DNA of 64,000 nt from Chiloscyllium plagiosum (lineage: Eukaryota), in assembly GCF_004010195.1 (NCBI RefSeq), contig NC_057746.1, positions 2,196,777 through 2,260,776 of the forward strand, read 5' to 3'. Numbering within the stretch: position 1 is the first letter of the stretch; each line of letters starts with the position of its first letter. The notes under the pieces are model-generated. The model did no database searches, had not been told where the DNA came from, and was given only the letters and a program-made list of their open reading frames with translations. Both the position numbers and the translations under genes were made by a program. Below are positions 16,762 to 58,231 of the stretch, in pieces.

Positions 16762-16864
16762 CAAAGTTTGTGAGAAGATTTGTAGCTCGGGTGCTCGGAT
16801 GTCACCTAGACAGGGGACGAAACGTTTGCAACAAAAACTTCCAGCTCGGCGAACAGAGCCACAG
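16762..16864 (+). mobile_element. Penelope-like short element, family C, with truncated hammerhead
   Basis: 13-bp TSD TATATTTTACATT (16749-61/16865-77); GA-T-GTCACCT-AGAC-AGGGGAC-GAAA-CGTT core lacking CUGA. Confidence 0.7.
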
Positions 16865-17421
16865 TATATTTTACATTTCAGTCTCGGCATTATTAGAGGT
16901 TTTACAGATACCAGTCCACCCTGCCCCTCAGCTTCTGATAGGCTCACTCCTCCCTGCTTACTGAATTGTAACTTTGAGTCACTGTCAAAAGCTTTTTTCT
17001 GAGTTTCCAAAGATATCTGAACCCACTGCCAACAATGAGGCCTCCTCCAGTGACTCCTCCTCTGGCCTCACAAGGACAAATCTAGTGGAGTCTTTAGATT
17101 GTCACAGAATGTATCTGTTTAACTGGAGACTGTGTTCATTCTCATATTCTGTTAATACTCAGTCCACAGAAAGTACTCCCTCTCCTCTATACTGACTCTC
17201 TCTCTCTCTGTCTGCCTCTCTGTCTCTTTATCTCTCTCTCTCTCTCATAACTGCCCTTGTCTCTGTCAATAATCTCAGAGTTGGAAAATCTGTCTAGTCA
17301 GCCCCAGGTACTCTGGCCTTTGTTTTTGGTTGTGATAACTTTGCATCTTGCTCAGCAAGTTCAAAAGTATCACTATAGTAACAAATCCACCTGACTTTTC
17401 GCCTGGCATAATAATATAATG

Positions 17422-17635
17422 GTCGAAGAGTGTGGTGCTGGAAAAGCACAGCCGGCTAGGCAGCATCTAAGGAGCAGGAGAGTTCACGTTTCGAGCATAA
17501 GCCTTTTATCCTGATGAAGAGCTTATGCTTGGAATGTCGACTGTCCTGCTCCTCGGATGTTGCCTGACCAGCTGTGCTTTTCCAGCACCACACTCTTCAA
17601 CTCTGATCTCCAACATCTGCAGTCCTCACTTCCTC
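17422..17635 (+). mobile_element. Penelope-like hammerhead element, family A, inverted repeat (decayed core)
   Basis: 15-bp TSD CATAATAATATAATG; ~85-bp inverted arms; CTGATGA at 17511 but GAAA mutated. Confidence 0.8.
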
Positions 17636-17795
17636 CATAATAATATAATGTCCCAGCAACATCATTTCTGAGAAATTCCATTTTTTTAAAGTATAAAGAT
17701 AGTTTAAAATATGATAATCTTCTGGATTTCACATTCATAACACACTTAGGCTTTCTCGATTGTGGGGAGGATTGGAGTAGCCTGGAGGGGAGTTC

Positions 17796-17939
17796 GAGGT
17801 AAAAACAATGACTGCAGATGCTGGAAACCAGATTCTGGATCAGTGGTGCTGGAAGAGCACAGCAATTCAGGCAGCATCCGAGGACAGGCAAAATCGGGCA
17901 AAAGCCCTTCATCCTGCTTTATTCCTGATGAAGGGCTTT
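17796..17939 (-). mobile_element. Penelope-like hammerhead element, family A (internally deleted)
   Basis: 13-bp TSD TGGAGGGGAGTTC (17783-95/17940-52); short inverted CCTGATGAAGGGCTTTT end. Confidence 0.8.
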
Positions 17940-18339
17940 TGGAGGGGAGTTCCCCCAGCTCCTCAGGAAGAGGCTGGGTTTGATCATCCACTCAATATTT
18001 CTGCCTCAAGAACGTTAACATTGCGTCTTGTTCCCGTGTGCTGGGCTCTAGCATGGCTGTGAATGGTGGTGTCATGGAACTACCTTCTCCTGTTACTCAA
18101 CTAGTTGTCCACAATTCTCAAGAAGGTGTGGTAGGACTACAGAGCTTTGTTCTAACCTGTTGGTTGTGGGGCTGTTTAGTTCTATTTATTTATTACTTGT
18201 TACTATTGGTGTCCAGGTTCCACTTCGTCTTCTGCAGTATGTTCACTGGGTTAGAAAGCAACCTGCAGAGTTTGTTCTGTGCTGTTCCAGTCATGCCTAT
18301 CGACTGGTTTGATAATACAAACATGGAAAAACAAGAAAG

Positions 18340-19050
18340 ATAGAAACAAGTAATAGGAGCAGACCATTTGGCCCATCAAGTCCAATCTGCTATTCAACAT
18401 GATGCTGGCTGATCATCTGTCTCAATGCCGTACTCCCCGCCCCCCTCCTCCCCATACACTTCGACACATTTAATCTCTACAAATCCATCCATTTGTTTCT
18501 TAAATATATTCATTGTTAAGGCCTGCAAAGCATTTTGTGACAGAAAATTCCACAGGTTTGCCACCCTCTGAGTGAAGAATGTTTCATCATCTCAGTCTAA
18601 AATGGCCTACCCTACATTCTGAGACTGTGATCCTTTGTCGTGGAGTCTCCAACCATCATCCCGGCATTGAATATATCCAGCCCAGTCAGAGTTTTATATG
18701 TTTCAGTGAGGTCCTGTCTTCTAAACTCCAATGAATACAGGCCCAGCTGATCCAAACTTTCCGAATATGACAAACCTGCCATTCTAGGAATCAGCCTGGT
18801 GAACCTTTGCTATATTCATTCGATGGCAAGTATATCTTTTCTGTTTCTCTTAGCAAAGTGGACAGCTTCACAGTTATCCACGTTACACTGCATCTGTCAT
18901 ATATTTTCCCATTCATTCAATGAGGTTAAATCACCCTGAATCCACTTTACATCTTCCTTACCACTGACAATCCCAATTAATTTCATGCCATCAACAAACT
19001 TGGAAATAGTACATCTAAATACCTCATCAAAATTATTAATATATATGGTC
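18340..19050 (-). mobile_element. CR1 LINE RT/3' fragment
   Basis: IYINNFDE..ISKFVDGMKL (FADDTKL relic). Confidence 0.8.
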
Positions 19051-20577
19051 ATTGTTGCAATGCATGCATTCACTCCTAAAATATTAACCATTGCCTATTC
19101 ACTGTCATGAATTTTAATGGAATCATCCAGTCAATTCCAGTCAATTGCAGACACTTATATCATTGTAGTTTCTTTTGTTCAGATTTAGGAGCCTAGTTTT
19201 AGATTGGACTACTTCAGTTTCTATCCATATGAGAAATTCTGTCACTTTCTTTGAAGGGATCGCTCACAACAAGAAATTAACTCTTTCTCATTGCAAAAAA
19301 CTAGATCTAGGATTGTCTTTCCTGAGTTGGTTCCTCAAAGTACTTGTCTGAAAAAATTTTTGTACACACTCTCAGAATTTACTGAACACAGTATTGTTTA
19401 TGAATGTGGTTTGCCTAGTCTATACACAGATTAAGGTCACCCATGAATATTGTAGCACCCTTACTGTGAGTGTCTCTAATTTTGTGTAGAAAGCCATCCT
19501 CTGCCTCATCACTACTGTTTGGAGGCCTGTGAGATTTGGGTGGAAAATAATCCTGATGCTGCTGATGGCTCACTGCGCCTCTAAGACACCCAGTTTTGGG
19601 ACCTGTCCTGAGTCTACTTCTTTCGTGATGATGAACATGGTGAAGGACTCATTTATCATTTGGGAGGGGATTGGTAGTTTTCCTTGAATTTGTTTGACCT
19701 GAAGGCATTAGACCTTATGGAACCAATATTAAAGACCTTCCTGTCCTGCCAGTGGAATGGACAATCCCAGGGATGGAGACAAAGGAGTCTGGGATGTTTT
19801 CAGATTGATACGATTCAGTCATATTAGCTCACAGTGATTGAGAACCCATTTCAAACTCCACCCAGAAGGTGTTTATCTTTTTCAATGTCCTTGCAATGCC
19901 TGGGAAGATGGTCTGGGGAAGGAAAGAAAGCAGCCATATTGTCTGCTCCTAGGTGTGACAGTCAAGTGAGGAAAAAAAAATCAATTTGTATCTGATTTCC
20001 CCAAACAGGGGAATAGCAGACTGGCACTCACTGTGGAACAGTCTCTCACCGAGGAGTCAGTCTCTTTAGCAAAGGAGGAGAGGGATTTGGAGGAACTCAT
20101 GATTTCTTTTCCTGTTTTACAGAAGGATTGCACTGTACTACACCAGAGAGGATAGACACTGCAGATAGATCCTGAACATCACCCAAGGAATGACTGCACA
20201 ACCGTGGGAAGACATCCAGACCCTTCACAGCATTGCTCAACACAGAGAAGGTTGGGCAGTTAAACCATCATCTGGAAATTGGTTGGGACAGGGGAACTTT
20301 GATACATCATCAGATCTGAAACTGGTCAGTGGGGTGGAGCCTTCCATCAGAACCAACCTTTCTGAGGGTTCGGCTGTGGTGATCAGTCAGGGTGAGGCTG
20401 GGAAGAAGTGTGAGTGGCTTCAAGTGTGATGAGAGCTTCAATCGTTCATGAAGCCTCATGAACCACTGATTCATTCCTACAGGAGAGAGGCTGTTCAAGT
20501 AGGGAGAGGGCTCCACATAACATTTCCAAATACGAAAGGTGCATTTGATGTATTACTGTTAAAAAAAGGACAGGTTC

Positions 20578-21345
20578 ATGGAAGAGAAACAATTCCAGTG
20601 TGAGGTCTGCAAACGAGCTTTTGCAAAGTCATCAACATTGGTGAATCATCGACGCATTCACACAGGAGAGAAGCCTTACAAATGTGAGGTTTGTGACAAG
20701 GCCTTTGCACAATTATCAGCCCTAGTGAATCACCGGCGCACTCACACAAGGGAGAAACCATTCACGTGTGAAGTGTGTAACAATTCATTCTCAGAATCAT
20801 CGACTCTTCGCAAACACCAACGCGTTCACACAGGGGAGAGACCTTTCGTGTGTGAAGTGTGCGACAAATCATTCTCACAGTCATCGACCCTTCATAGGCA
20901 CCAACGCATTCACACGGGGGAGAAACCATTCATATGTGAGGTGTGTGACAAATCATTCTCAAATTCATCACATCTCCGCCGACACCAACCCGTACACACA
21001 GGTGACAAGCCATTCACGTGCAATGTGTGTGACAAATCCTTCTCAGATTCATCAAGTGTCCTACTCCATCAGAGGATTCACACAGGGGAAAAACCATTTA
21101 CATGTGATGTGTGTGACAAATCATTCTCAGTCGTATCTTCCCTTTGTAAGCACCAACGCATTCACACAGGAGAAAAGCCTTTCACATGTGAGGTATGTAA
21201 CAGGTCATTCTCAGTGTTATCAAACTTCCGCAGACACCAACGCATTCACACAGGGGAGAAACCATTCACGTGTGAGGTTTGTGACAAATCCTTTTCAGTG
21301 TCGTGGAATCTCCTGCTCCATCAAAGGAATCACACAGGGGAGTAA
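20578..21345 (+). CDS. C2H2 zinc-finger protein B, 9 fingers
   Basis: 255-aa ORF; acceptor at 20122; decayed fingers continue to about 21590. Confidence 0.9.
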   Translation: MEEKQFQCEVCKRAFAKSSTLVNHRRIHTGEKPYKCEVCDKAFAQLSALVNHRRTHTREKPFTCEVCNNSFSESSTLRKHQRVHTGERPFVCEVCDKSFSQSSTLHRHQRIHTGEKPFICEVCDKSFSNSSHLRRHQPVHTGDKPFTCNVCDKSFSDSSSVLLHQRIHTGEKPFTCDVCDKSFSVVSSLCKHQRIHTGEKPFTCEVCNRSFSVLSNFRRHQRIHTGEKPFTCEVCDKSFSVSWNLLLHQRNHTGE

Positions 21346-22967: not shown

Positions 22968-23406
22968 ATGACAGAGAGCTTGGTTAAGGCATATTTGAAT
23001 AAGGAATTGCTGAAGTGGACAGAGTATTGGAAAGCTTATGATGCTATGAGTCCCAAGGCATTGGATCATTGACAGTCAGTTAGGAAGTCTGTGGGAAGGA
23101 ATTTGTTGTTTATTCGCAGAAACTTGATACATGACACAGGTGTTAAAGTGGAGAAATGCTGAGATAAGTGAGTTAAAGTCAGAAAGTTGATGCCTTAGAG
23201 GCCGTCAGGCAGAAAAGGACTGTTTACCAGTTGGAAAACACAGTATTCAAGGGAAAGGTTAAATCCCTAGAGATTGCTAATCAAGTGAAGGTAATTTACC
23301 TCTCAACTTATCAATGTCAATGTAAGACAGCAAACAGAAATGCTGAGAAGGCACATAGGCAGGTACAGGAGTCAGAAATTAAGACTAAAGAACTGGAAAG
23401 TCATAA

Positions 23407-23657
23407 TTCGGAGATGCCGGTGTTGGACTGGGGTGGACAAAGTTAAAGATCACCCAACACCAGGTTATAGTCCAACAGGTTTAATTGGAAGCACTAGCTT
23501 TCGGAGCGACGCTCCTTCATCAGGTGATTGTGGAGGGCTCGATCGAGCGTAAGTTACGATCGAGCCCTCCACAATCACCTGATGAAGGAGCGTCGCTCCG
23601 AAAGCTAGTGTGCTTCCAATTAAACCTGTTGGACTATAACCTGGTGTTGTGTGATTT
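23407..23657. mobile_element. Penelope-like hammerhead element, family B, ~97-bp inverted arms
   Basis: Arms about 23449-23545 and 23557-23655; GAACTGGAAA on both flanks. Confidence 0.85.
23576..23610 (+). ncRNA. Minimal type-I hammerhead ribozyme (second intact copy on - at 23492-23526)
   Basis: CAC-CUGAUGA-A-GGAGC-GUC-GCUCC-GAA-AGCU-A-GUG: stem I CAC/GUG, stem II GGAGC/GCUCC, palindromic AGCU; predicted cut after 23607. Confidence 0.8.
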
Positions 23658-24677
23658 GGAACTGGAAAATAAATGTAAACATCTCCAGGCAACACTTACA
23701 AAGTACTGCATCAAGCACAACCTGAGCAACAAGTGCAGCGTGCTGATCATTCTAAATACCAACAAGCAATTCAAGTTTTCCAGTCAGAGAGGGTTTCACT
23801 GCACTTTAGGACCCAGACAAACATTAGGGAATGGAAAGAGTAATGGAAAGAGGATTGGTTGAGAGTGAAATTATATACTATTCAGAGTAGAGCAGGGAAT
23901 ACAATTATAATCCCGATCAGTGTGCCCCTCTGCCACCCTGGAATAAAGGTTCTCTTTATCTCCCTGTATCAGCTATATCATCCGAGTCACTGCCCCTGTC
24001 CACTGTGCCCTAAGGCATCTCAGCCTTTGGGGCAGGAAGTTAAGAAGGAGTCTGTCAATCCTTTCGAGATCAGAGAGTAAAGCGCAAAAGTAGCCTCCTC
24101 TGGTAAATCCAACAAATCCCATTCAAAAAGTCTGAATAGGATTTCAAGATGGGAATATTCAGTACAATACCTCTTATTCTGTCACACAATTACAAGATAA
24201 TGCTTGGAGCATGCCCACTCTTTCACCAGGCAATGACCTGTTTAATGCCTCTCATGATCTGAGAAGGTTACACAGCCTCGATAAAACAGAGGAGGTGAAA
24301 CTTCCACTTGCCTGCTTAGTGATTCAATATGAGATGCACTTCCTGATCCACAAAGCATGGCAGGGGAGCGGGGGGAAAGAATCCCTGGCTGACACGGAGA
24401 AGGCAATCTTGATACCAATAGATTATAGTGGAAGGGATAAAATAGAGAGGATGCTGTAGATGGACTGAAAAATATAAACAAAGGAAAGAACATTCAATGG
24501 TGTTTGCCTCTCATCTCTGAAACTAGTTTATTACTGTATTTGGGACTCAGCAGGGAAATAATCTTGATGACAGACAGCGCAGCTTTTGATTGTGAACCTG
24601 AATAGAACATTCCACTGAGGCATCTGGGAAAGCTTGTAAAGCCTTTGACCACAAGGAGAAAACATACTCGGATGTGT

Positions 24678-24965: not shown

Positions 24966-25200
24966 AGATTACAGTGGTGCTGGAAAAGCACAGCAGGCCA
25001 GGCAGCATCCAAGGAGCAGGAAAATCGACGTTTCGGGCAAAAGCCCTTCTTCAGGAATACAGCTCTATTCCTGATGAAGGGCTTTTGCCCGAAATGTCGA
25101 TTTTCCTGCTCCTCGGATGCTGCCTGACCTGCTGTGCTTTTCCAGCACCACTCTAATCTAGACTCTGGTTTCCAGCATCTGCAGTCATTGTTTTTACCTC
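24966..25200 (+). mobile_element. Penelope-like hammerhead element, family A, inverted repeat
   Basis: Cores at 25071-25098 (+) and 25026-25054 (-, intact CUGAAGA-A-GGGC-UUUU-GCCC-GAA-ACGU-C); imperfect TSD GAGGGTCTAT/GAGGATCTGT. Confidence 0.85.
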
Positions 25201-27612: not shown

Positions 27613-27614
27613 GG

Positions 27615-27965: not shown

Positions 27966-27974
27966 CTAGGACAT

Positions 27975-29600
27975 TGCTAGTGAGGGATTCAATAATGGCA
28001 ACGCTATCAACTGTCATAGACAATAGACAATAGGTGCAAGAGTAGGCCATTCTGCCCTTCGAATGACGGCAAGTGATAGAGCTAAGCAATTCCACAATCA
28101 ACGGATCAGATAAGCTATGCAGTCCTGTCATGGGGCGGTAGTTAAATTGTTTCTTATTAGTGAAGGTCATTGCCTGGCCTTTTTGTGGTGCAAATGCTAC
28201 TGCCACTTTTCAGTCCAAGCCTGGATCTTGCTGCATTAGGACATGGACTGCTTCAGGTTCTGAAGAGTTATGAATGGTACTGAACATTGTGTAACTAGTG
28301 GCAAAGATCTCCACCTCTGACCTTGGGATGGAAGGAAGGTCATTGATGAAGCTGAGAATGGTTGAGTCTCAGACATTAACTTAAGGAACTCCTGCAGTCA
28401 TGGACAAGTGGAGTGAAGGGTCTGTTTCTGTGCTGTATATCTCTATGACTCTAAGATAATTGATCTCCAACAACCACAACCATCTTCCTATGTGTCAAGT
28501 ATGACTCTAACCAGTGGAGAGTTTGCCCCTGCTTTCCATTGACTCCAATTTTGCTGGGGGTCCTCAATGCCATAGTCAATAGAATATGCCTTGATGGTAA
28601 GGGCTGTCACTCTCACCTCACCTCTTAAATTCAGCTTTTTTGTCTATGTTTGAAGCAAGGCTGTATTGAGGTCAGGAGCTGAGTGGCCCTGGCAGAACCC
28701 AAACTGGGCATCACTGAGCAGGTTATTGCTGAGTAGGTACTACTTGATAGCCCTTGAGGACACCTTCCACCATTTTACTGATGATCAAGGGTAGACCAAT
28801 GTAGCGGTAACCGGCCCAGTTGGATACATTCTGCTTTTTATGTATAGGACATAACTGGGCAATTTTCCATGTTGCCAGGTAATACCAGTGTTATGAGCTG
28901 AAAATGTGTTGCTGGAAAAGCGCAGCAGATCAGGCAGCATCCAGGGAATAGGAGAATCGACGTTTCGGGCATAAGCCCTTCTTCAGGAATGAGGCTTGCT
29001 GCATTAGGACATGGACTGCTTCAGGTTCTGAAGAGTTATAACTATACTGGAACAGCTTGGCTAGGTATGCAACTAGTTCTGCAGCACAAGTCTTTTGTAC
29101 TATGGCTAGAATGTTATGTGGGCCCATAACTTTTGCTGTATCCAGTGCCTCTTACCACTTCTTGATATCACATAGAATGAATCAAACTAGCTGGAGGCTG
29201 GCATCTATGATGGTGGAGGCCACTGGAGGAGGCCGAGATGATTCATCGACTTGGCCTTTCTGCTGAAAATTGTTGTGAATGCTTGAGCTTTGTCTTTTGT
29301 ACTGATGTTGAGCACTTCCATCAGTGTGGATGGGGATATTTGTGGAGATTTCTCCTCCAGTGAGTTATGTAATTCACTTTTGGACATGGCAGGACTACAT
29401 AACTTATCTGATCTGTTGATTGTGGAATTGCTTAGCTCTATCACTTGCTGTTATGCAGTTTGCCACACATGTAGTCTGCCACAACACCTAATGGATGCCT
29501 GGTCTTGAATTGCTTGATCTCTTCAAAGTCTGTCATATTTAGCATCATGATAGTGCCACACAACATGACGGAGGATATTCTCAATGTGAAAATGGTATGC
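27975..29600 (-). mobile_element. CR1/L2-related LINE RT fragment
   Basis: Collinear with 62950-64000; KTCAAELVAYLAKLFQYSY motif. Confidence 0.8.
28895..28994 (-). mobile_element. Family A hammerhead element with intact core
   Basis: Minus strand ATTC-CTGAAGA-A-GGGC-TTAT-GCCC-GAA-ACGT-C-GATT. Confidence 0.85.
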
Positions 29601-30234
29601 CTGTGAAGTACTTGTTGTCACCCTGAGTTTGTGGAAGTTTACAAGAGTCTTTATTTCTTTAGGAAACATACAGCTTCCTGTTGATGGAGAAATTGTCCCA
29701 TTCCACAAAGACACTGACCAATATATTGTGTACAGGAGTCTTACTGTAGGATCCTAAGTATTTCAGTGAATAGAAACACTACACTGACAAATCAGGTTTT
29801 GCCAAAATATGATTTATTATGTGTTATAAATCTATGCAGAAGATTGAAAGAACAGGAGGAAAGGAAGGCAAAATTCAATTTACGCCAAAATAATAAAGTC
29901 TTTCAAAGTGACTTATGATCTATCCCAGAAAGTTGAAATGAATCTTGGAAGAGCGTAAGGTGAACATATCACACTTTTATTATATTATACTGAGGGAACT
30001 CACCCCACTCCCTCACTATACTCAGGATAGTAGTCCTCCCAGACAAAGATCAATCTGGAGAACTGTATTCAGTTCTGCGGGCCACTCCTCAGGAGAATAT
30101 ATTTTTCTTGGAGGGAGTCCAGCGTAGATTCACTGGAATGTTTCTGAGGTTAAATGATGAGAACAGGTTTCACAGACTGAGCTTGTATGTATTCTGTAGA
30201 GTACAGAAAAATTAAGGGATAATCCAATTGAGGT

Positions 30235-32302
30235 AACAGTGGCTGAAGGACCTGAACTTAAGGGAATTTATATTTGCCAGGATTTGGTGTTGGAGAGACT
30301 GTTAGGTCTGAAGGTTGATAAGTCTCCGGGGCCTGATGGTCTGCATCCCAGGGTACTGAAGGAGGTGGCTCGGGAAATCGTGGATGCATTGGTGATTATT
30401 TTCCAGAGTTCAATAGATTCCGGGTCGGTTCCTGAGGATTGGAGGGTGGCAAATGTTATACCACTTTTTAAGAAAGGTTGGCGAGAGAAAGCAGGAAATT
30501 ATAGACCAGTTAATCTGACCTCAGTGGTGGGAAAGNNNNNNNNNNNNNNNNNNNNNNNNNNNNNNNNNNNNNNNNNNNNNNNNNNNNNNNNNNNNNNNNN
30601 NNNNNNNNNNNNNNNNNNNNNNNNNNNNNNNNNNNNNNNNNNNNNNNNNNNNNNNNNNNNNNNNNNNNNNNNNNNNNNNNNNNNNNNNNNNNNNNNNNNN
30701 NNNNNNNNNNNNNNNNNNNNNNNNNNNNNNNNNNNNNNNNNNNNNNNNNNNNNNNNNNNNNNNNNNNNNNNNNNNNNNNNNNNNNNNNNNNNNNNNNNNN
30801 NNNNNNNNNNNNNNNNNNNNNNNNNNNNNNNNNNNNNNNNNNNNNNNNNNNNNNNNNNNNNNNNNNNNNNNNNNNNNNNNNNNNNNNNNNNNNNNNNNNN
30901 NNNNNNNNNNNNNNNNNNNNNNNNNNNNNNNNNNNNNNNNNNNNNNNNNNNNNNNNNNNNNNNNNNNNNNNNNNNNNNNNNNNNNNNNNNNNNNNNNNNN
31001 NNNNNNNNNNNNNNNNNNNNNNNNNNNNNNNNNNNNNNNNNNNNNNNNNNNNNNNNNNNNNNNNNNNNNNNNNNNNNNNNNNNNNNNNNNNNNNNNNNNN
31101 NNNNNNNNNNNNNNNNNNNNNNNNNNNNNNNNNNNNNNNNNNNNNNNNNNNNNNNNNNNNNNNNNNNNNNNNNNNNNNNNNNNNNNNNNNNNNNNNNNNN
31201 NNNNNNNNNNNNNNNNNNNNNNNNNNNNNNNNNNNNNNNNNNNNNNNNNNNNNNNNNNNNNNNNNNNNNNNNNNNNNNNNNNNNNNAGTGACCAGTGGGG
31301 TACCGCAGGGATCAGTGCTGGGACCGTAGCTTTTTACAATATACATTAATGATAGAGAAGATGGTATTAGCAATAACATTCGCAAATTTCATCAGCTGGG
31401 TGGCAGGGTGAAATGTGATGAGGATGTTAGGAGATTACAGGGTGACCTGGACAAGTTAGGTGAGTGCTCAGATGCATGGCAGATGCACTTTCACGTGGAT
31501 AAATGGATCCTTATCCACTTTGGTGGCAAGAACAGGAAGGCAGATTACCACCTAAGTGGAATCAATTTAGGTAAAGGGGCAGTACAGAGAGATCTGGGGG
31601 TTCTTGTACACCACTCAATGAAGGTAAGCATGCAGGTACAGCAGGTAGTGAAGAAGGCTAATAGCATGCTGGCCTTCATAACAAGAGGGATTGAGTATAG
31701 AAGCAAAGAGGTTCTTCTGCAGCTGTACAGGGCCCTGGTGAGACCACACCTGGAGTACTGTGTGCAGTTCTGGTCTCTAAATTTGAGGAAAGACATTCTG
31801 GCTATTGAGGGAGTGCAGCGTAGGTTCACGAGGTCAATTCCTGGAATGGCGGGATTATCTTACACTGAAAGACTGGAGCGACTGGGCTTGTGTACCCTTG
31901 GGTTTAGAAGACTGAGAGGGGATCTGGTTGAGACATATAAGATGATCAAAGGATTGGACACTCTGGCGGCAGGCAACATGTTTCCGCTGCGGGGTGAGTG
32001 CCGAAACAGAGGACACAGCTTAAAAATACGGGGTAGACCATTTAGGACAGAGATGAGGAGAAACGTCTTCACCCAGAGAGTGGTGGCTGTGTGGAATGCT
32101 CTGCCCCAGAGGGCAGTGGAGGCCCAGTCTCTGGATTCATTTAAGAAAGAGTTGGATAGAGCTCTCAAGGATAGTGGAATCACGGGTTATGGAGATAAGG
32201 CAGGAACAGGATACTGATTAAGGATGATCAGCCATGATTATATTGAATGGCGGTGCAGGCTCGAAGGGCAGAATGGCCTATTCCTGCACCTCTTGTCTAT
32301 TG
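30235..32302 (+). mobile_element. Young 5'-truncated CR1 LINE ORF2 (RT), spanning an N gap
   Basis: KSPGPDGLHPRVLKE, NYRPVNLTSVVGK, GVPQGSVLGP, LVRPHLEYCVQFW, FTQRVVAVWNALP; 3' UTR and tail present. Confidence 0.95.
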
Positions 32303-37705: not shown

Positions 37706-37850
37706 GCAGAACACTGCAGATGCGGGTAATATGAAATAAAGATAGAAAATACTTTTAAATGTCAGCAGGTCAGGCTGGATCAATGGAGAAACGGACAAAT
37801 GGATGTTACATTTCATGTCTATAACCTTTCATCAGTATTGTGAGAAGTTG
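37706..37850 (-). mobile_element. Old Penelope-like end with decayed hammerhead
   Basis: Minus strand CTGATGA-AAGGTT-ATA-GACAT-GAAA-TGTA followed by CCTGACCTGCTGA..GCATCTGCAG tail. Confidence 0.55.
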
Positions 37851-38049
37851 GAAATGGAATAGGTTTTGAATGAGCTGTGGATGGGACAAGGAGAAAGACA
37901 GAAATCTGTTGCGAGAAAAGGCAGAGATATAGAATTACAAAAATGGAATGCTCCAAGGTCAAAGGCAATGGAGATTGGGCAAGAGATAAATAAATACACA
38001 CTATTACAAACTACTTAAATACACACTATGAAGTGACCACTCACAGTGC

Positions 38050-39050
38050 ACAGGATAACAAACAGCTTCCAATACACACACAGAACACAGGAAATTAGTA
38101 AGAATCTTCAGACACTCTGCACCTCCCACATATTGACACCTCACCTCCTCATATTCAGGAATAATCCATCAACAAATCTCAGCCTGGAAATCAGAGGGAA
38201 ATGCTTCCAATAAACACACTCAATATCCAACACACAGCTCCAGTCACACAGTTCAGCACAAAGCACCGAGTAAACAGCTCTCTCAGCTGGATCTTCTCAC
38301 ACAGCATAAGGGACATTTCCACCCCTGACTGCCCACAGGATAGTCAGACTGCCTGAAGATTGGTGTGGATATTATGGGATACAATTTGTATAAAAGCTGC
38401 TCCTTCACTCACCATCTCCTCACTTGGTTTTCAGTCCCTATAGGAAGTGAACCAGCTCTGGAAGAGGAAGAGGAGACAATGGGCAGAGTGGGTGGACTCT
38501 CTGATTGACGTCTCTCACAGTCAATCCAAATATTTCTGATTTATCATGGTATTCAATTAGATGAAAGACTTAACAGACAATCAATTCTTTAATGTATAAT
38601 TTCAGTTACATCACATTAATTTTTGCTGTAAATTCTGTTAGGATCGAGCCCTCCACTATCACCAGATGAAGGAGCGACGCTCCGAAAGCTAGTGCTTCCA
38701 ATTAAACCTGTTGGACTATAACCTGGTGTTGTGTGATTTTTAACCAAATATTTCTGGAGTAACATGAGTTTCCTGAAACTTGGGAAACTGACCGGGGAAA
38801 TGGAGGTGACTTTGAGCAACAGATCAGGTGGGGATTTAAACTTGTTATTGTCCCATCTGAATAAAACCTCACTTATTGCAGCTGCTGTCTCAGTTCCTCG
38901 GGTAAATGTTTGACAGAGATTTCTAGTGTGAGAAGAGCATTCTTCACACTAAGAGGCTTTCAAACTGACAACATCAGTGTGGGATCAGTATCCTCAGTTG
39001 TGTTTGATAGAAAATCAACACAGGAAGACCCACAACTTCCCAAGGCAGTG
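38050..39050 (-). repeat. ZNF 5' cassette, copy 3: micro-exons 38457-38413 and 38183-38145, upstream exon ending near 38873
   Basis: Reverse-complement near-identity to copies 1 and 2. Confidence 0.78.
38539..38743 (+). mobile_element. Family B element inserted in cassette copy 3
   Basis: 13-bp TSD CCAAATATTTCTG; paralogous empty sites at ~38-50 and ~15444-15456; core reads CAGATGA (mutated). Confidence 0.9.
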
Positions 39051-39748: not shown

Positions 39749-39847
39749 CATTCCTGATGAAGGGCTTATGCTTGAAACGTCGATTCTCCTGCTCCTTGGA
39801 TGCTGCCTGACTGACTGTGCTTTTCCAGCACCACACTTCTCAGCTCT
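39749..39847 (+). mobile_element. Family A hammerhead element
   Basis: CTGATGA (39754)-A-GGGC-TTAT-GCTT-GAA-ACGT-C. Confidence 0.8.
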
Positions 39848-40232: not shown

Positions 40233-40444
40233 CTGGAAATGTGTTGCTGGAAAAGCGCAGCAGGTCAGGCAGCATCCAGGGAACAGGAGAATCAACGTTT
40301 CGGGCATAAGCCCTTCTTCAGGAAAGAAGGGCTTATGCCCGAAACATCGATTCTCCTGTTCCCTGGATCTGCCTGACCTGCTGCGCTTTTCCAGCAACAC
40401 ATTTCCAGCTCTGATCTCCAGCATCTGCAGACCTCACTTTCTCC
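40233..40444 (+). mobile_element. Family A hammerhead element, inverted repeat
   Basis: 15-bp TSD GCTGAAATTGCTGAG (40218-32/40445-59). Confidence 0.88.
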
Positions 40445-40984: not shown

Positions 40985-41440
40985 TCAATTCGAACCGCAC
41001 ACAATCCCGCTTCGAACTACATTACCCATGCTGCATGTGGGACCCCACGCCTGAGCAGTGAGAGGCGGCCGCATGAAATCTGGGGAGAGCCAGTCCGCGG
41101 TGCCTGACGGGGGTTGTAGTTCTGATACACGCAACGGCGATGGGCGCCCAGCGATCGGGAATTTGAGGTCAACCCCTGTACATGGCTAAAAGTCACACAA
41201 CACCAGGTTATACCAGGTGCCCACAACCACCTGATGAAGGAGCAGCGCTCCGAAAACTAGTGCTTCCAATTAAACCTGTTGGACTGTAACCTGGTGTTGT
41301 GTGATTTTTAATTTTGTACACCCCAGTCCAACACCGGCATCTCCAAATCCTGTAAATGGCGGCCTCTGGTGGTTGGAGTCGCGATCGCAACCCGTTCCCC
41401 TCCTCGGGAGTTCCCCATGTCCGTTCAGGCCCTCGTCCCT
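40985..41440. promoter_or_regulatory. Candidate CpG-rich bidirectional promoter with two ZNF143/SBS motifs and a YY1-like site
   Basis: GAACTACATTACCCATGCTGCA (+, 41014-41035); GAACTACAACCCCCGTCAGGCACCGCGG (-, 41095-41122); AAATGGCGGC at 41354. Lies between divergent genes C and D. Confidence 0.65.
41187..41348 (+). mobile_element. Family B hammerhead element in the promoter
   Basis: TSD CCTGTA(C/A)ATGGC; CTGATGA at 41231; short inverted 5' end. Confidence 0.85.
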
Positions 41441-42200: not shown

Positions 42201-42201
42201 A

Positions 42202-42500: not shown

Positions 42501-42519
42501 ATCCCACTAAGTGTGGGAT

Positions 42520-43474: not shown

Positions 43475-43575
43475 AGTTCTGAGCAAGGGTCACTGGACAC
43501 GAAATGATGACTCTGATTTCTCTCCAAAGATGCTGCCAGACCTGATAAGCTTTTCCAGCAACTTCTGTTTTTGTT
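43475..43575 (+). mobile_element. Penelope-like end, family D (decayed hammerhead), abutting cassette copy 4
   Basis: CTGAGCA-AGGGTC-ACTG-GACAC-GAAA then GATGCTGCCAGACCTG..TTTTCCAGCA tail. Confidence 0.6.
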
Positions 43576-44085
43576 GCTCCAGAAATATTGTGATTGACTG
43601 TGAAAGATGTCAATCAGAGAGCCCACCCACTCTGCACATTGTCTCCTCTTCCTCTTCCAGAGCTGGTTCACTTGCTTTTATACAAATTGTATCCCATAAT
43701 ATCCACACCAATCTTCAGGCAGTTTGACTATCCTGTGGGCAGTCAGGGGTGGAAATGTCCCTTATGCTGTGTGAGAAGATCCAGCTGAGCAGTCTGACTA
43801 TCCTGTGGGCAGTCAGGGGTGGAAATATCCCTTATGCTGTTTGAGAAGATCCAGCTGAGAGAACTGTTTACTCGGTGCTTTGTGCTGAACTGTTTGACTG
43901 GAGCTGTGTGTTGGATATTGAGTGTGTTTATTGGAAGCATTTCCCTCTGATTTCCAGACTGAGTTTGTGATGGCTCATTCCTGAATATAAGAAGGTGAGG
44001 TGTCATTATCTGGTAATTGCAGAGAATCTGAAGATTCTTACTAATTTCCTGGTGTTGAGTTCTATGTGTGTTGGGAGCTGGGTAT
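43572..44085 (+). repeat. ZNF 5' cassette, copy 4 (rearranged)
   Basis: 45-nt exon truncated with donor deleted after 43673; 70-bp duplication 43719-43858; second exon 43958-43994. Confidence 0.75.
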
Positions 44086-46482
44086 GTTCTGTCTTTTCAA
44101 ATTTGTCCAAGACCTCCCACCATTCTCTTGCTATAAGAAATGAAAAGTTGTATTTATATCGAGGCTTTCACGACTACAAGAAATTTGAAAATGCTTTACC
44201 ATTAATGAAATATTTTTGAAGGTGGTCACTGTTGTAATGTAGGAGATGTGACAGTTCATGTGCAAATAGCAAGATCCCAAATGTGTTAACACTCTCACAA
44301 TTTACCATGGATCATTGAACTGTGTTTAAGGTCCTGTATAAATGCAAATTATTGTTTATTGTGTAAAATGTCAGATTGTGACCAGGCATTCAGTTATAGC
44401 AGCGTAATTCCCCTTATACTTCACCATCCAACTGAACCTTTGCTGTGAAGCAGTTTCCCAGACTCCCAGTAAAAGAAGATATAGTTATAACCTCAGATCT
44501 TCAGCACTGCAGGGTAGGAATGGATGAACACGGGTTCAAACTCGATGTGTTAAGGAGCATTGCAAGATGACCACTTGGGCTGTGGTTGCTCTCCCAGTGT
44601 GACTGGCAGGGATTTGGTTCCTGCTATTAATCTAGGTAGACAGAGAAAGAAATAGTTAGAGGGACAGCAGTAAAGGGAGAGCCATTACTCCTGTTGACAT
44701 GTCTATTTACTCGTTTAATGATAATCATGAAATGAGGGCTGCGCTGGGCTGTGAGATTGTGGTGGAGTCTAATCCTGCTGCTGCTGATGGCTCACTGCAC
44801 CTCAAGGACATCTAGTCTACATCCCTTTTAATGATGAACATGATGAAGGACTCATTTATCAGTTGGGCAGAGAGCAATAGATTTCCTTGAAATTTGCTCG
44901 ACCTGAAGCTGTAGGTTGGATGCCTTGGGTTTGTGATAGGGGTCAGTCAGTCATGTCAGGTGAGGATAATTTTTGCGAGGTAATGAGGGCAGTTGGGTGG
45001 ATTGGGATTTTGTGTGGGTTGGCAAAGGTCAGTGTAAGTGATTGCTGTGTTTGTTCTGGAATTGTCCAGATGTTGGACTAAGAAATTTTATTTCTACCTA
45101 AAATTTCTTGGTTAACTATTGGTTAAGTACTGTACCATATAAATGTCCAAAGTCTCTAACTCTGAATCAAAATCAAAGACATTTATGTTCAAGGGAGCAG
45201 GCAAATTGTCCATCTTCTGATGTATTCTGGGGTATTCCGGTCAATGAGTCAGGACTTCGACAGGGTCCTGAAGTACACATTAGGTCATCTATCTGGCCTC
45301 TGAACATCTCAACATTTGGTCCACTGGTTGAAAAGTCCATTTTTTTCCAGAACGCTTCATTATTTCCCAAACGCATGGGCTTGGATTTGATCATTTTTGC
45401 CCAGAGCTGTGGCTGAAAACTGAATTTGGGATGTGCAATCTGAGTGAGTGCAATTGATCTAAATTGGTAGATTAAACGGTACCCTTCAGTCAGCTACACT
45501 GAAACAGTATTTTCCTTAGCTTCTAGAACTTCCTCCTCAGTGTGTTTTCCTCAAATAAGTTTGGAAAACAAAGGGAGAACTTTCAAAATCTTTATTGAAT
45601 TAATATTTCTCCAGAATGTTTTTACATTAAGCAAAGACTCTAAGGTCTTCATCAGGAAGAGTCAAGCTCACAGTGGACTGACAGCCAGTGTTACATTCTA
45701 CCCAACTGTTTTTTCCATTGTCCTCACAATGCCTGGAAAGATGAGGTTCTTGGAGGTGGGAACAATGTGGCCATGTTGTCTGCTCCTGGCCACTATGCAG
45801 TGTTCCTGCTGGAAACAGGGATACATAGCAGTCAAGTGAGGGAAACGAAAATACTTTATCTGACACCTCCCCCCCCGCCTCCGTGCCCACCACCACCACC
45901 AAAGAAAAGCCCCCCACATAGGGAATAGCAAACTCACTGTGGAGTCAGCCCCTTCAGTAAAAGAGAGGAAGTTGGAGGAAATCATACTTCCTTTTCCTGT
46001 TTTACAGAAGGATTGCCCCGTACTACAGCAGAGAATACAGGGAGGACAGACACTGCAGAGAGATCCTGACCATCACTGAAGGAACAACTTCACAACTGTG
46101 GGAAGACATCCAGTCCCTTTGCAGGATTGCTCAACACAGAGAAGGTTGAGCAGTCTAGCCATCATCTAGGAATCAGTCAAGTCAGGGGAGCTTTGACACA
46201 TCATCAGATCTGAAACTGGTCAGTGGAGTGGAGCCTTCCATCAGAACCAGCCTTTCTGAAGGTTCGGCTGTGGGTGATCGATCAGGGTGAGGCTGGGAAG
46301 AAGTGTGAGTGGCTCCAAGTGTGGCGAGAGCTTCAATCATTCATTGAGCCGCATTAACCAGTGACTAATTCCTTACAGGGGAGAGGCTGTTTGAGTGTGA
46401 GGTGTGAGAGGAGGGCTTTACAGCCTCATAAGATCCTTCAACACACAAGGTGCATCGGTTTTATAACTGTTAACACATCAAC

Positions 46483-47694
46483 ATGGAGGAGAAGCTGTTC
46501 AGGTGTGAGGTTTGTGAGGTGCGTTTTACTCGATCCTCTGATCTCCTGAGGCACCAGAGGATCCACACAGGGGAGAAACCCTTCCAGTGTGAGGTGTGTG
46601 ACCGAGCCTTCGCACATTCATCAACACTAATGAATCACCGGCTCATCCATACTGGGGAGAAACCATTCAAGTGTGAGGTTTGTGATCAGGCCTTCACACG
46701 GTTATCGACTCTCATGAATCACCGATTCACCCACACAGGGGAGAAGCCGTTCAAGTGTGAGGTGTGTGAGCAAGCCTTTACTTGGCCAACCACTCTCATG
46801 AAACACCGACGTGTTCACACTGGGGAGAAACCATTCAAGTGCGAGGTGTGTGACAAGAACTTTGCGCAGTCATCAGCCTTGGTGGATCACCGACACATTC
46901 ACACAGGGGAGAGGCCTTTCATGTGCGAGGTTTGCACCAAATCATTCTCGCAGTTATCATCCCTCCGCGTACACCAGCGCATTCACACAAGGCAGAAGCT
47001 GTTCAAGTGCGAGGTATGTGACAAATCCTTCTTGCACTCATCTCATTTTCGTGTACACCAGCGCATTCATGCAGGGGAGAAGCCATTCAGTTGCGGGGTA
47101 TGTGACAAATCGTTCTCACATTCATCGACCCTCCGTGCACATCAACGTATTCACACAGGAGAGAAGCCATTCAGGTGCGAGGTTTGTATGAAGGCTTTCA
47201 GCTACTCCTCAAATCTGCTGAGGCATCAGAGGATTCACACAGGGGAGAAACGCTTTAAGTGTGAGATGTGTGACCGAGCATTCACACATGCAGCAACTCT
47301 CGTAAATCATCGACGTGTGCACACCGGGGAGAAGCCATTCACGTGTGAGGTATGTAACGAGGGCTTTGCAGGATCGTCAGGCCTGGTGAATCACCAGCGC
47401 ATTCACACAGGGGAGAAACCGTTCACTTGTGAGGTGTGTGGCAAATCATTCTCACGGACTTCGACTCTTCGTGAACACCAACGCATTCATACAGGGGAGA
47501 AGCCATTCGCGTGCGAGGTATGTGAGAAAACTTTCTCAAATTCGTCCCACTTTCGCGTGCATCAACGTATTCACACGGGAGAGAAACCCTTCACCTGTGA
47601 GGTGTGTGACAAAGCTTACAGAACCTCCTCGAATCTCCTAATTCATCAGAGAATCCACACTGGGGGAGAAACCCTTCAAGTGAGAAATTTATGA
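46483..47694 (+). CDS. C2H2 zinc-finger protein D, 14 fingers
   Basis: 403-aa ORF; acceptor at 46007; ends by a frameshift in the last linker, followed by decayed fingers to about 48020. Confidence 0.92.
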   Translation: MEEKLFRCEVCEVRFTRSSDLLRHQRIHTGEKPFQCEVCDRAFAHSSTLMNHRLIHTGEKPFKCEVCDQAFTRLSTLMNHRFTHTGEKPFKCEVCEQAFTWPTTLMKHRRVHTGEKPFKCEVCDKNFAQSSALVDHRHIHTGERPFMCEVCTKSFSQLSSLRVHQRIHTRQKLFKCEVCDKSFLHSSHFRVHQRIHAGEKPFSCGVCDKSFSHSSTLRAHQRIHTGEKPFRCEVCMKAFSYSSNLLRHQRIHTGEKRFKCEMCDRAFTHAATLVNHRRVHTGEKPFTCEVCNEGFAGSSGLVNHQRIHTGEKPFTCEVCGKSFSRTSTLREHQRIHTGEKPFACEVCEKTFSNSSHFRVHQRIHTGEKPFTCEVCDKAYRTSSNLLIHQRIHTGGETLQVRNL

Positions 47695-54877: not shown

Positions 54878-55067
54878 GGAGAAAGTGAGGTCTGCAGATG
54901 CTGGAGATCAGAGCTGAAAATGTGTTGCTGGAAAAGCGCAGCAGGTCAGGCAGCATCCAGGGAACAGGAGCTCATTCCTGAAGAAGGGCTTATGCCCGAA
55001 ACGTCGATTCTCCTGTTCCTTGGATGCTGCCTGACCTGCTGCGCTTTTCCAGCAACACATTTTCAGC
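54878..55067. mobile_element. Family A hammerhead element in the upstream exon of cassette copy 5
   Basis: 14-bp TSD TCTACCTCTTCTGA; intact core 54978-55005 on +. Confidence 0.88.
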
Positions 55068-55605
55068 TCTACCTCTTCTGACCTGCTTACGAACACACAT
55101 CCACTGACACTGTTAGTTTGAAACTCTCCGAGGATGAAGGATGCTATTCCCACACTAGAAATCTCTGTCAATCATTTACCAGGGGAACTGAGACAGCAGC
55201 TGCAATAAGTGAGGTTTTATTCAGATGGGACAATGACNNNNNNNNNNNNNNNNNNNNNNNNNNNNNNNNNNNNNNNNNNNNNNNNNNNNNNNNNNNNNNN
55301 NNNNNNNNNNNNNNNNNNNNNNNNNNNNNNNNNNNNNNNNNNNNNNNNNNNNNNNNNNNNNNNNNNNNNNNNNNNNNNNNNNNNNNNNNNNNNNNNNNNN
55401 NNNNNNNNNNNNNNNNNNNNNNNNNNNNGTGTGTTTATTGGAAGCATTTCCCTCTGATTTCCAGGCTGAGTTTTGTTGATGACTGATTCCTGAGTATGAG
55501 AAGGTGAACTATAGTTATCTGGGAGATGCAGAGTGTCTGAGGATTCTTACTTATTTCCTGCTGTTGAGTTCTGTGTGCGTTGGGTGTTGGTTATTATCAT
55601 GAGGT
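55068..55605 (+). repeat. ZNF 5' cassette, copy 5 (core falls in N gap); micro-exon 55465-55503
   Basis: Both gap flanks match the cassette. Confidence 0.75.
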
Positions 55606-57009
55606 TTGTAATTTGTACAGTTCCTAGGAGAATGTTGCCTCATTGCATGGAATAGGAGTTGTGTTGAAGCTCTTATGGTGCAGTGGTTGTGACCATACCT
55701 CTGAGTCTGGAGGCCCAAGTACAAGGCCCACATGATCTAGCGGTGTATAATAACATATCTGAAAAGGTTGATTTTAAAAAATGGAGTCAGCCACGTCGTG
55801 TCTCGAGTATGCCCCACCATTTACCAAGATCATAGTGTTTCTGTAACCTCCATATTTCTGCTCTTTCCCTAATTCCCTTCAAAACTTTGGTGAAAAAAAA
55901 ATCCATCTCAGATTTGATAGAAGTTGCAGATTTAGCATTAATTGTCAATTATGGCAATGAGTTCCAATCTTCTCCCACTCTTTGTGTGTCACAGTAGTTC
56001 CTTATTTCACTCCAAAAAGATCTGACTGTGTTCTTTGGATAATGCCCTGGATCTAGACTCCCCATCCGATAAAAATAAGTTACTTCCATTGGCGTGAATT
56101 CTTCACTTTAATATTTCAAAAACGTTCATCAGATCATCTTTTAACCTTCTAAGCACTGAGGAATATAACCCTATTTGTTTAAGCTCTCCTCATTATGTAA
56201 CCCTTGCAGCTCAGGGATCATTCCAGTACTGTAAATCTGTACTGCATTCCCCCCAAGGCCAATACCTTATGTGTGGTGAGTTATCTAGAATTGTTCTCAG
56301 TAGTCTAGTGATAATCAAACCAGGGCTTTGTGTCACTGAAATATGTTGTTTCTGTGTCGCCATAGTCTTATCAGAACGTAGGGACTGCTTTCATATTAGA
56401 GAGAGACAGAAGTGACTGTGGTCATTTAACCTGAGGGCCACCAGATCTCAAGCGAGGGAAGAGATTGAGAAGGAGAGTCCTTCATGGTAGCCTCAAACCA
56501 GTGATGGGAACTGAACCCACACTGTTGGCATCACACTGCTCTGTAAACCAATGATGCAACCAACTGAGCTAAGCATTCTCACTGAAATATGACTTCTACC
56601 CCATAATATTCCTTTTCTCAAGCCATTTCCATTATCCTATACTTTATGTATCTCTTCATGACATTTTAATGATGTCAATACCTTGGTCCCCAGGTCTCTT
56701 ATTACCTTTTTCAGTATCCTGTTCATTACTATTTATGAAATAACAACCCCTCTACCCTGTTCCACTCCCAATGCCACTGACTCACCACTTCTATCCCACA
56801 TTTACAGCTGATCGGATCAACAAAGAACTTGAGAAGGCAAATTTGCTGGAGAGATACCGTGTGAGTGGAGTAGCAACTCCTCACACCTTCTATCCATTCT
56901 GTTTCTGGGGCCAGCCGTCCTCTGATTGGTCACCCTATTGTTGCATTTCCCTGAGCATCTTGCAGGTTTTTTTGCCATATATGTACCCGTTATCTGCATG
57001 TATTTAAGT

Positions 57010-57680
57010 GCAGATTGTGGGGTTAATATTGACCAGAAGTTGAGCTGGATCAGCCATGTAAACACAGTGGCTGCAAGGGGCTAGGAATCCTGAGTGAGTA
57101 ACTCACTTCCTGACTCCATAGATCCTGTCCACCATCTATAAGACACAGATCAGGAGTATGATGAAATATTCTCCTCTTGCCTGGAAGTGTACAGCACCAG
57201 CAATACTCAGAAAGCTCAACAGCACCACCAGGACAACAAAGCCCACTTGACTGCCACTCCATCCATCACTTGCATTGTTCATTCCCTCCAAACTGTCAGA
57301 CAGTGGTAGCACTCCTGAAGATGCACTGCAGCAACTCATTAAGATTCCATCCACATCACCATCCATACCCATGATCCCCACCACTTGGAAGGTTAGGACA
57401 AAAGGTGTCTTAACAGTAAAACCTGTAAGATCCACCACTGCCACTGCCATCCCCCCCACCCACCCACCGCCAAACTTCACGCCACCATGGCTTGGAACTC
57501 TACTTTGATTCCTTCACTGTCACTATTCAAACTTCTGGAACTCGCTTCCAGACAGTACTATGTGTGTCCTGACATCCCAATGGCTACAATGGTTCAAGAA
57601 GGCAGCTCATCACCACCTTCTCAAAGGCTGTTAAGAAAGGGTAGTAAATTCTGGCTTAACCTGTCATGCAGTCTTCCTAT
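57010..57680 (+). mobile_element. CR1/L2-related LINE fragment
   Basis: TIYKTQIRSMMKYSPLAW relic. Confidence 0.7.
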
Positions 57681-58112
57681 GAAGGTTTAGGTAAAGAAAA
57701 CTGTTCACCGAGGGTGGAAAGGGTGATGGAGGAAGTCACGATTCCTCTTCCTGTTTTACACAAGGATTGCACCGTATTGTATCACAGAGGATGGAGGATT
57801 TTGCAGATACAAAAAGGATTGATACGATAGATAGATCCTGACAACCCAAGGAATAACCTAAATCAGACAGTACAGAGAAGGTTGGGCAGTGAAACCATTG
57901 TCTGGAAATAGATTAGGTCAGGAGAATTTTGACACATCATCAGATTTGAAACTGGTGAGTGGTGTGGATCCTTCCATCAGAACCAACCTTTCTGGAGGTT
58001 TGGCTGTGGGTGATCAGTCAGGGGAGGTTGGGAAGAAGTGTGAGTGGAGTCCAATGTGGTGAGAGCTTCAGTCATTCACCGAGGGTCATGAACCACTGAC
58101 TCATTCCTACAG

Positions 58113-58231
58113 TGGAGGAGCCAGTGTTGGACTGGGATGGACAAAGTTCAAAATCACTCTGCAGAAACTTGATGTCTGTGTCACTTCCAAATAAACCTGT
58201 TGGACTATAACCTGGTGTTGTGTGTTTTTTA
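58113..58231. mobile_element. Family B remnant (no ribozyme core) in the leader of ZNF E
   Basis: 14-bp TSD ACTCATTCCTACAG; paralogues lack it. Confidence 0.85.

What the first reader, a model, noticed from the sequence alone, without database searches (positions are those of the whole stretch)
16762..58231. Dense population of short non-coding hammerhead-ribozyme retroelements (4-5 families) with shared insertion architecture
Seen: about 14 inserts of 100-250 bp with no ORF (16762, 17422, 17796, 23407, 24966, 28895, 37706, 38539, 39749, 40233, 41187, 43475, 54878, 58113). Most contain CUGANGA-stem II-GAAA followed by a 4-nt palindrome (ACGU or AGCU) and a UH site. Stem II differs completely between families (GGGC/GCCC, GGAGC/GCUCC, GUCACCU/AGGGGAC, GGGUC/GACAC) while the core is kept, i.e. 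covariation. Most are asymmetric inverted repeats with 12-15 bp TSDs. Known: minimal hammerheads lacking helix III and cleaving as dimers mark Penelope-like pLTRs and retrozymes, and inverted truncated ends are typical of Penelope insertions. Inference: several non-autonomous ribozyme-bearing families have been active here. I cannot tell whether they are already catalogued.
Basis: partly seen in the sequence, partly recalled or inferred. Interest (0 to 1): 0.85.

Follow-up and report, generated by a model that had tools for sequence, protein, structure and literature searches.

The report
Penelope retroelement ends carrying minimal hammerheads
The short inserts are real but ordinary: they are stub copies of the ribozyme-motif-bearing ends of at least four protein-coding Penelope-like jumping-gene lineages, a kind described since 2014, and they are no denser in this window than elsewhere in this (likely shark) genome.

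Summary
All 14 inserts exist. A complete minimal hammerhead core is present in 7 of 14 (9 cores against 0.06 in shuffles). 9 of 14 are head-to-head inverted and 9 of 14 have a 10-15 bp TSD.

They are not stand-alone non-coding families. Elsewhere in the genome each end continues upstream into a reverse transcriptase + GIY-YIG frame: A 24/30, B 18/20, C 24/25 and D 16/25 protein-anchored loci. They are the pLTR ends of Penelope-like elements: three Neptune-type lineages and one Poseidon-type.

The window is average: 13 inserts against 13.8 expected from 0.97 Mb of unselected DNA, or about 0.8 million genome-wide. Helix I and the central palindrome covary between families. Individual copies are decaying at CpG.

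Two measured regularities: (1) 54 of 59 classifiable inverted inserts join one tailed arm to one arm ending about 40 nt short; (2) 5' ends pile up just before CUGA, not at the cut site.

Minimal hammerheads in pLTRs, the inverted copy, the tail and TSDs are all published. This scan has noted the same elements in many other windows of this genome.

The parts
16762..16864 (.). Family C (Poseidon-type) stub: inverted 36-nt tail (- strand) plus tailless arm (+) starting inside the core (CUGA missing); TSD 13 bp 16749-16761 / 16865-16877
17422..17635 (.). Family A two-armed insert, tailless (-) plus tailed (+); core mutated (GGAA); TSD 15 bp 17407-17421 / 17636-17650
17796..17939 (.). Family A1 insert, tailed arm (-) with a deletion in the core plus a very short + arm; no complete core; TSD 13 bp
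23400..23658 (.). Family B two-armed insert, tailed (-) plus tailless (+); complete cores at -23523 and +23579; TSD 10 bp 23390-23399 / 23659-23668
24966..25200 (.). Family A1 two-armed insert, tailless (-) plus tailed (+); cores at -25054 (ACGU) and +25071 (AUGU); TSD degenerate
28895..28994 (-). Family A2 single tailless arm, complete core at -28986; no TSD found
37706..37870 (-). Old, degenerate copy related to family D/A ends (relatives 69-89% identical); CUGAUGA...GAAAUGUA at -37835 with broken stem II
38539..38743 (+). Family B single tailless copy reaching about 120 nt into the element's 3' UTR; core mutated (CAGA); TSD 13 bp 38526-38538 / 38744-38756; empty paralogous sites at 15444-15456 and 38-50
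39749..39847 (+). Family A2 single tailless arm, complete core at 39754; no TSD found
40233..40444 (.). Family A2 two-armed insert, tailless (-, complete core at -40321) plus tailed (+, starts inside the core); TSD 15 bp
41187..41348 (.). Family B insert, short tailless arm (-) plus tailed arm (+), core at 41231 with AACU; TSD 12 bp with 1 mismatch
43475..43575 (+). Family D single tailless arm, degenerate core; no TSD found
54878..55067 (.). Family A2 two-armed insert, tailed (-) plus tailless (+, complete core at 54978); TSD 14 bp
58113..58231 (.). Family B insert, tail-only arm (-) plus tailless arm (+) starting 3' of the core; no core; TSD 14 bp; lies just upstream of a zinc-finger frame, and the paralogous genes lack it

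Best explanation
The inserts are short copies of the 3' end module (pLTR with a minimal hammerhead motif, with or without a ~40-nt tail) of at least four Penelope-like retrotransposon lineages whose longer copies in this genome encode a reverse transcriptase and a GIY-YIG endonuclease, and they were likely made by target-primed reverse transcription and are likely dead now. SHOWN: linkage of each end to an RT/GIY-YIG frame; TSDs; two fixed 3' ends about 40 nt apart; one of each per inverted insert; 5' ends peaking just before CUGA; covariation between families; CpG decay within copies. INFERRED: the endonuclease nicks both strands about 10-16 nt apart. Each nick primes a cDNA on the same RNA, one at the tail end and one at the internal site (twin priming with strand displacement), and the two cDNA ends are then joined head to head. 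The hammerhead is under selection only in the source elements. It probably needs a dimer or the element's protein to cut, and these stubs were copied from RNA not cut at this motif.
For: Linkage: the family's own end lies downstream, same strand, in A 24/30, B 18/20, C 24/25 and D 16/25 protein-anchored loci, against at most 1 locus per set with it upstream on the same strand. Each set includes its one seed locus; 5 of the 6 A misses have more than 1,300 N downstream, and both B misses are at contig ends. Single stop-free frames with RT + GIY-YIG: B L112, 480 aa, its end unit about 750 bp downstream; C L245, 359 aa, running into the hammerhead. Pfam RVT_1 passes cutoff for A (L086, L070) and C (L245) and is below cutoff for B and D; GIY-YIG is a sub-cutoff hit on A L004. 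A2 ends have endonuclease C-terminal coding 90-155 nt upstream in 4 of 14 long arms and an RT hit in 1 more. B protein relatives are shark and turtle RVT_1/GIY-YIG proteins. Unselected sample of 100 stretches, 966,588 bases: 213 inserts, 69 two-armed; 54 tailed+tailless, 1 tailed+tailed, 4 tailless+tailless, 10 unclassifiable (P 1e-11 against 0.5). Arms overlap in element coordinates in 29 of 30 pairs, and the tailless arm reaches further 5' in 17, the tailed in 7, equal in 6. RNA reads reproduce the two 3' ends (loose ends at L251:1737 and 1775-1777). 5' ends: 68 of 274 arms start 1-6 nt before C3, only 2 exactly at the cut product. CpG decay at the catalytic G12 is 14-40% and at the palindrome 13-36%. 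Literature: PMC4209133, PMC8557442, PMC3846280, PMC11167929.
Against: No intact full-length pLTR-ORF-pLTR element was found; two candidates checked were separate insertions. 160 of 213 inserts are 150 nt or shorter and many start at one spot, which random 5' truncation alone does not predict. Non-CpG core positions differ from the column majority less (1.6-4.4%) than downstream positions (7.5-9.1%). I read this as subfamily variation plus alignment-end bias but did not separate it from selection on copies. TSDs were found in only 10 of 91 single-arm inserts, against 22 of 39 two-armed. No cleavage or insertion step was tested.
Confidence: 0.9

Rival explanations
1. Most stubs are a SINE-like, non-autonomous population. 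Short RNAs starting just 5' of the hammerhead (in a solo pLTR, or the leader of a full element) are copied in trans by the Penelope protein, so the stubs are complete copies of a short template and not truncations.
For: Sharp 5' peak 1-6 nt before C3 in 68 of 274 arms, with unrelated upstream flanks. 160 of 213 inserts are 150 nt or shorter. pLTRs hold the promoter/TSS in Penelope and Chlamys (PMC8557442 passage), and pLTRs suffice for mobilisation in trans (PMC3846280 passage). This can coexist with the best explanation.
Against: The same ends are attached to RT/GIY-YIG frames, and copies grade continuously to kilobases. There is no clear extra cap-G: G precedes 10 of 28 peak single arms. An RT stop at the hammerhead fold would give the same peak. 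No stub-specific subfamily was shown.
Confidence: 0.3
2. The inverted arm is made by fold-back self-priming of a single cDNA, or priming on an antisense RNA (as proposed in PMC3846280), not by a second target-primed cDNA.
For: Junctions often fall in the self-complementary UUCCUGAA segment. Both arms share subfamily marks in the examples seen.
Against: The tailless arm reaches further 5' than the tailed arm in 17 of 30 pairs, so it cannot be a copy of the tailed arm. A copy of the tailless arm cannot supply the tail.
Confidence: 0.15
3. They are non-LTR retrozymes (tandem, rolling-circle hammerhead repeats) or MITE/DNA-transposon-like palindromes.
For: Type-I hammerhead motif; inverted appearance; one pair of family D copies 255 bp apart (L154/L155).
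Against: No tandem arrays of these units in the window. The inverted arms are unequal and differ from copy to copy, TSDs are variable at 10-17 bp, and the ends are linked to RT frames.
Confidence: 0.04

Closest known systems
Minimal hammerheads (min-HHR) in pLTRs of metazoan Penelope-like elements (Cervera and De la Pena 2014, PMC4209133)
   Same: No helix III; extra base between 9 and 10.1; G10.1-C11.1 pair; palindromic 15.2-16.2; several covarying families per genome; mostly single motifs, some pairs on opposite strands; found there in fish Xena, Poseidon and Neptune.
   Different: Cartilaginous fish are not named in the parts I read. The estimate here of about 220,000 strict cores far exceeds the 4,000 (coelacanth) and 9,000 (Xenopus) reported, though the descriptors differ.
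Canonical EN+ PLE insertion unit with inverted 5'-truncated copy and 30-40 bp tail (Arkhipova et al. 2013, PMC3846280; Craig et al. 2021, PMC8557442)
   Same: Head-to-head inverted copy, tail on one arm, TSD, heavy 5' truncation.
   Different: Stated there as 'optional' or 'often at one end'; here measured as 54 of 59. TSDs here are mostly 10-16 bp against 8-10 bp in the rotifer examples.
Poseidon from Anolis, PAc (Frangieh et al. 2024, PMC11167929)
   Same: Two RT start sites bracket the tail; both strands are nicked and extended; AT-rich targets (TSDs here 67% AT against 59%); uncleaved RNA is the template.
   Different: In PAc the ORF starts inside the hammerhead. Here family C's ORF ends inside it, and I did not locate any 5' ORF start.
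Non-LTR retrozymes (bioRxiv 10.64898/2026.07.22.740005)
   Same: Type-I hammerhead, pLTR-related, reported in one chondrichthyan.
   Different: Defined as tandem units; these inserts are dispersed singles or inverted pairs.

Membership tests
EN+ Penelope-like element (canonical, C-terminal EN) | RT followed by C-terminal GIY-YIG endonuclease in one frame, upstream of the end unit | tested here: met
   B L112 480 aa and C L245 359 aa hold both in one frame; A and D have both in frameshifted copies
EN+ Penelope-like element (canonical, C-terminal EN) | CCHH motif in the endonuclease | tested here: met
   Read by eye in translations of A, B and C: two Cys before the YIG motif, two His after; not checked for D
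EN+ Penelope-like element (canonical, C-terminal EN) | Inverted 5'-truncated copy, 30-40 bp tail on one end, TSD | tested here: met
EN+ Penelope-like element (canonical, C-terminal EN) | Full-length partial tandem (pLTR-ORF-pLTR) | tested here: inconclusive
   Two candidates were separate insertions; many long copies contain N runs
EN+ Penelope-like element (canonical, C-terminal EN) | RT groups with PLE/telomerase RTs in a phylogeny | not tested
   No named reference PLE set was available; only pairwise identities
Neptune/Nematis-type PLE (families A, B, D) | CX2-5CxxC linker between RT and EN | tested here: met
   A L017, B L112, D L254/L229/L167 have C-x4-C-xx-C; definition from PMC8557442; Neptune versus Nematis not separated
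Penelope/Poseidon-type PLE (family C) | No CX2-5CxxC linker between RT and EN | tested here: met
   None in L245 or L251
min-HHR | CUGANGA and GAAA-NN-UH core with no helix III | tested here: met
   7 of 14 window inserts; all four families genome-wide
min-HHR | Extra base at 9.1, G10.1-C11.1, palindromic 15.2-16.2, short helix I | tested here: met
   helix I pair 2.1:1.1 is C-G in A/B, A-U in C, U-A in D; 2.2:1.2 is U-A, A-U, C-G, U-A; 15.2:16.2 is C-G in A and C, G-C in B, and mostly CpG-decayed in D
min-HHR | Self-cleavage as dimer or with protein help | not testable with these tools
   Monomer folds are no better than shuffles, as expected; needs an assay
Non-LTR retrozyme | Two or more tandem units each with a complete hammerhead | tested here: not met
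   No such tandem array in the window; inserts are single or inverted

The most novel reading that the evidence does not exclude
The roughly 0.8 million stubs are a fossil record of an unresolved Penelope mechanism. Every inverted insertion would come from obligate twin priming of one RNA: one target nick primes at the tail end, the other about 40 nt inside, and the trailing RT displaces the leading cDNA. Most copies would run off a short RNA whose 5' end lies 1-6 nt before the hammerhead core, so the ribozyme would head the template and not cut it.
Probability: 0.35. Interest if true: 0.5.

Novelty: new member of a known kind. Interest (0 to 1): 0.2.

Why it matters
As found, it adds shark examples to a class described in 2014 and corrects a false lead: these are not new non-coding ribozyme families. 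The only wider value is quantitative. The copy number is very large, and two sharp rules (one tailed plus one tailless arm; 5' ends just before the core) constrain how Penelope elements integrate and what their hammerhead does. Both questions remain open after the 2024 in vitro work.

Tried and rejected
Rfam: no hammerhead model matched; only spurious miRNA-hairpin hits on the inverted arms.

Local enrichment: rejected, 13 inserts against 13.8 expected.

A pile-up of 5' ends at the ribozyme cut site looked possible in the first 60 stretches. With 100 stretches it did not hold: 2 of 274 arms exactly at the site, 14 within 2 nt.

Cap-derived extra G: no clear signal. Full-length tandem element: not found. 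tblastn of A and B proteins against the window: no hit.

RNA: no listed holder was on record as RNA. Raw run X23 laid 771 reads on a family C stretch; 74% run on into unlike sequence, so they are likely host read-through. No start or end pile-up was listed, which is no test in such a library. X24 laid none.

The 37706 family was not linked to an ORF; only weak relatives were found. Paper searches for a shark-specific description found none. Dfam and Repbase could not be searched, and no supplements were read; the 2014 supplements list motifs by species and may include cartilaginous fish. The unselected sample stopped at 100 stretches.
Full report
CONTEXT. The window is G000:C37:2196777-2260776 of a 3.56 Gb assembly. 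It holds five long C2H2 zinc-finger frames. The closest named relatives of a retroelement protein from this genome are from bamboo, epaulette, cat and sevengill sharks, 70-91% identical, so the host is likely a shark (inference).

OBSERVATION. All 14 inserts exist. A strict descriptor finds 9 complete cores in 7 of the 14, against 0.06 per dinucleotide shuffle; the other 7 inserts have a missing or mutated core. Nine of 14 are head-to-head inverted. Nine of 13 scored have a 10-15 bp TSD, against 3 of 400 for mismatched flanks. The 38539 TSD is present once at two paralogous empty sites in the window, and zinc-finger paralogs lack the 58113 insert. The inserts fall into families A (A1, A2; 7 inserts), B (4), C (1), D (1) and one old D-like relic.

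WHAT THEY ARE. Genome searches with the ends returned copies that continue upstream to varying lengths into GIY-YIG and RT coding sequence. I then anchored on the proteins. The family's own hammerhead end lies downstream on the same strand in 24/30 (A), 18/20 (B), 24/25 (C) and 16/25 (D) loci, each set including its one seed locus; it lies upstream on the same strand in at most 1 locus per set. B (L112, 480 aa) and C (L245, 359 aa) have RT and GIY-YIG in one stop-free frame. Pfam RVT_1 passes cutoff for A and C and is below cutoff for B and D; GIY-YIG is sub-cutoff on A. A, B and D carry the C-x4-C-xx-C linker and C lacks it; by the definition in PMC8557442 that makes A, B and D Neptune/Nematis-type and C Penelope/Poseidon-type. 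No tree against named references was built. No intact full-length tandem copy was found.

DENSITY. In 100 stretches taken at fixed round coordinates of large contigs (966,588 non-N bases), six reference ends detect 213 inserts. That is 13.8 per window-equivalent against 13 observed, or about 780,000 genome-wide (rough, and older families are missed). Strict cores numbered 36 in the first 60 stretches (582,290 bases), about 220,000 genome-wide; the window's 9 is mildly above the expected 3.9.

RIBOZYME. Between families, pairs not required by the descriptor change in step. Helix I 2.1:1.1 is C-G (A, B), A-U (C) or U-A (D). 2.2:1.2 is U-A, A-U, C-G, U-A. 2.3:1.3 is U.U in A, C-G in B and G-C in C and D. 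15.2:16.2 is C-G or G-C. An extra base at 9.1 and G10.1-C11.1 are kept (strict hits from all loci then held, so anchored loci are included). These are the features listed for min-HHRs in PMC4209133. Within copies, CpG sites decay even at G12 (14-40%) and at the palindrome (13-36%). Against a purely neutral reading, non-CpG core sites vary less (1.6-4.4%) than downstream sites (7.5-9.1%); I attribute that to subfamily variation and alignment-end bias without having separated them. A transcript across a two-armed insert folds into one long hairpin (-179.6 kcal/mol, z -23), which buries the core and explains the spurious miRNA hits in Rfam. Monomer folds are no better than shuffles. Cleavage was not tested.

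INSERTION RULES. 3' ends are bimodal, at the element end and about 40 nt short, and RNA reads from a raw run of a related or identical species show the same two ends. Of 69 unselected two-armed inserts, 54 are tailed+tailless, 1 tailed+tailed, 4 tailless+tailless and 10 unclassifiable. In the first 60 stretches the arms overlap in 29 of 30 pairs, and the tailless arm reaches further 5' in 17, the tailed in 7; that argues against fold-back copying. 5' ends peak 1-6 nt before C3 (68 of 274 arms), with only 2 exactly at the cut product. I looked at 5' ends first, after two earlier scan notes had flagged the clustering.

MECHANISM (inferred). The endonuclease nicks both strands of an AT-rich target. 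The two nicks prime at the two RT start sites of one RNA, and the cDNAs are joined head to head, giving unequal inverted arms and a 10-16 bp TSD. PMC11167929 shows both-strand nicking and extension, two start sites bracketing the tail, and use of uncleaved RNA for an Anolis Poseidon element. That one insert uses one site per strand is my inference from the 54/59 count. Whether the 5' peak is an RNA start or an RT stop is open.

KNOWN OR NEW. Min-HHRs in pLTRs, opposite-strand pairs, the inverted copy, the tail and TSDs are published. Papers seen: PMC4209133, parts 1-2 of 4 (abstract to start of methods); PMC11167929, parts 1-2 of 4; PMC8557442, passages; PMC3846280, passages; bioRxiv 10.64898/2026.07.22.740005, part 1 of 5 and passages; PMC6155905 and PMC8455134, passages (the latter lists Penelope in the whale shark). 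Searches found no description of these shark families; Dfam, Repbase and supplements were not seen. The scan's index lists 169 notes fitting 'Penelope hammerhead pLTR' in this genome. Verdict: real, a new member of a known kind at most, interest 0.2.

Noticed in passing
window 5850-7136 +, 20563-21345 +, 34250-35536 -, 46474-47694 +, 58325-59443 +: Cluster of five long C2H2 zinc-finger frames with related upstream segments.
   Followed up: partly
L245:1731-1760, L251, L139 (family C): The family C frame ends ...PSTEDVT-stop across CUGAGGA and stem II, so the hammerhead core overlaps the last codons of the protein.
   Followed up: partly
window 28995-29039 and 28227-28271: A 45-nt exact copy of nearby upstream DNA directly follows the 5' junction of the single-arm insert at 28895; possibly a template jump or local duplication at integration.
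   Followed up: no
window 38-487, 15331-15803, 38089-38869, 43572-43859: A multi-copy segment of about 450 bp, 97-100% identical between some copies; inserts 38539 (B) and 43475 (D) lie at or next to the same position in two of its copies.
   Followed up: partly
window 2295-4474: GC-rich 32-bp tandem array, 68 copies, 95% matches.
   Followed up: no
window 30200-32217: LINE-like reverse transcriptase fragments across an N gap (CR1/L2-like by recall, not tested).
   Followed up: no
L032, L040, L058, L112: Family B has a CA-rich simple-repeat 3' UTR of about 450-850 nt between the endonuclease and the hammerhead.
   Followed up: no
L154/L155 (G000:C22:51834225-51834581): Two family D ends in direct orientation 255 bp apart; a possible short tandem.
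   Followed up: no
L295, L267, L313: Further hammerhead variants not in the window: a C-like stem GUUACCU/GGUGAC and a GGGU/ACCU stem.
   Followed up: no
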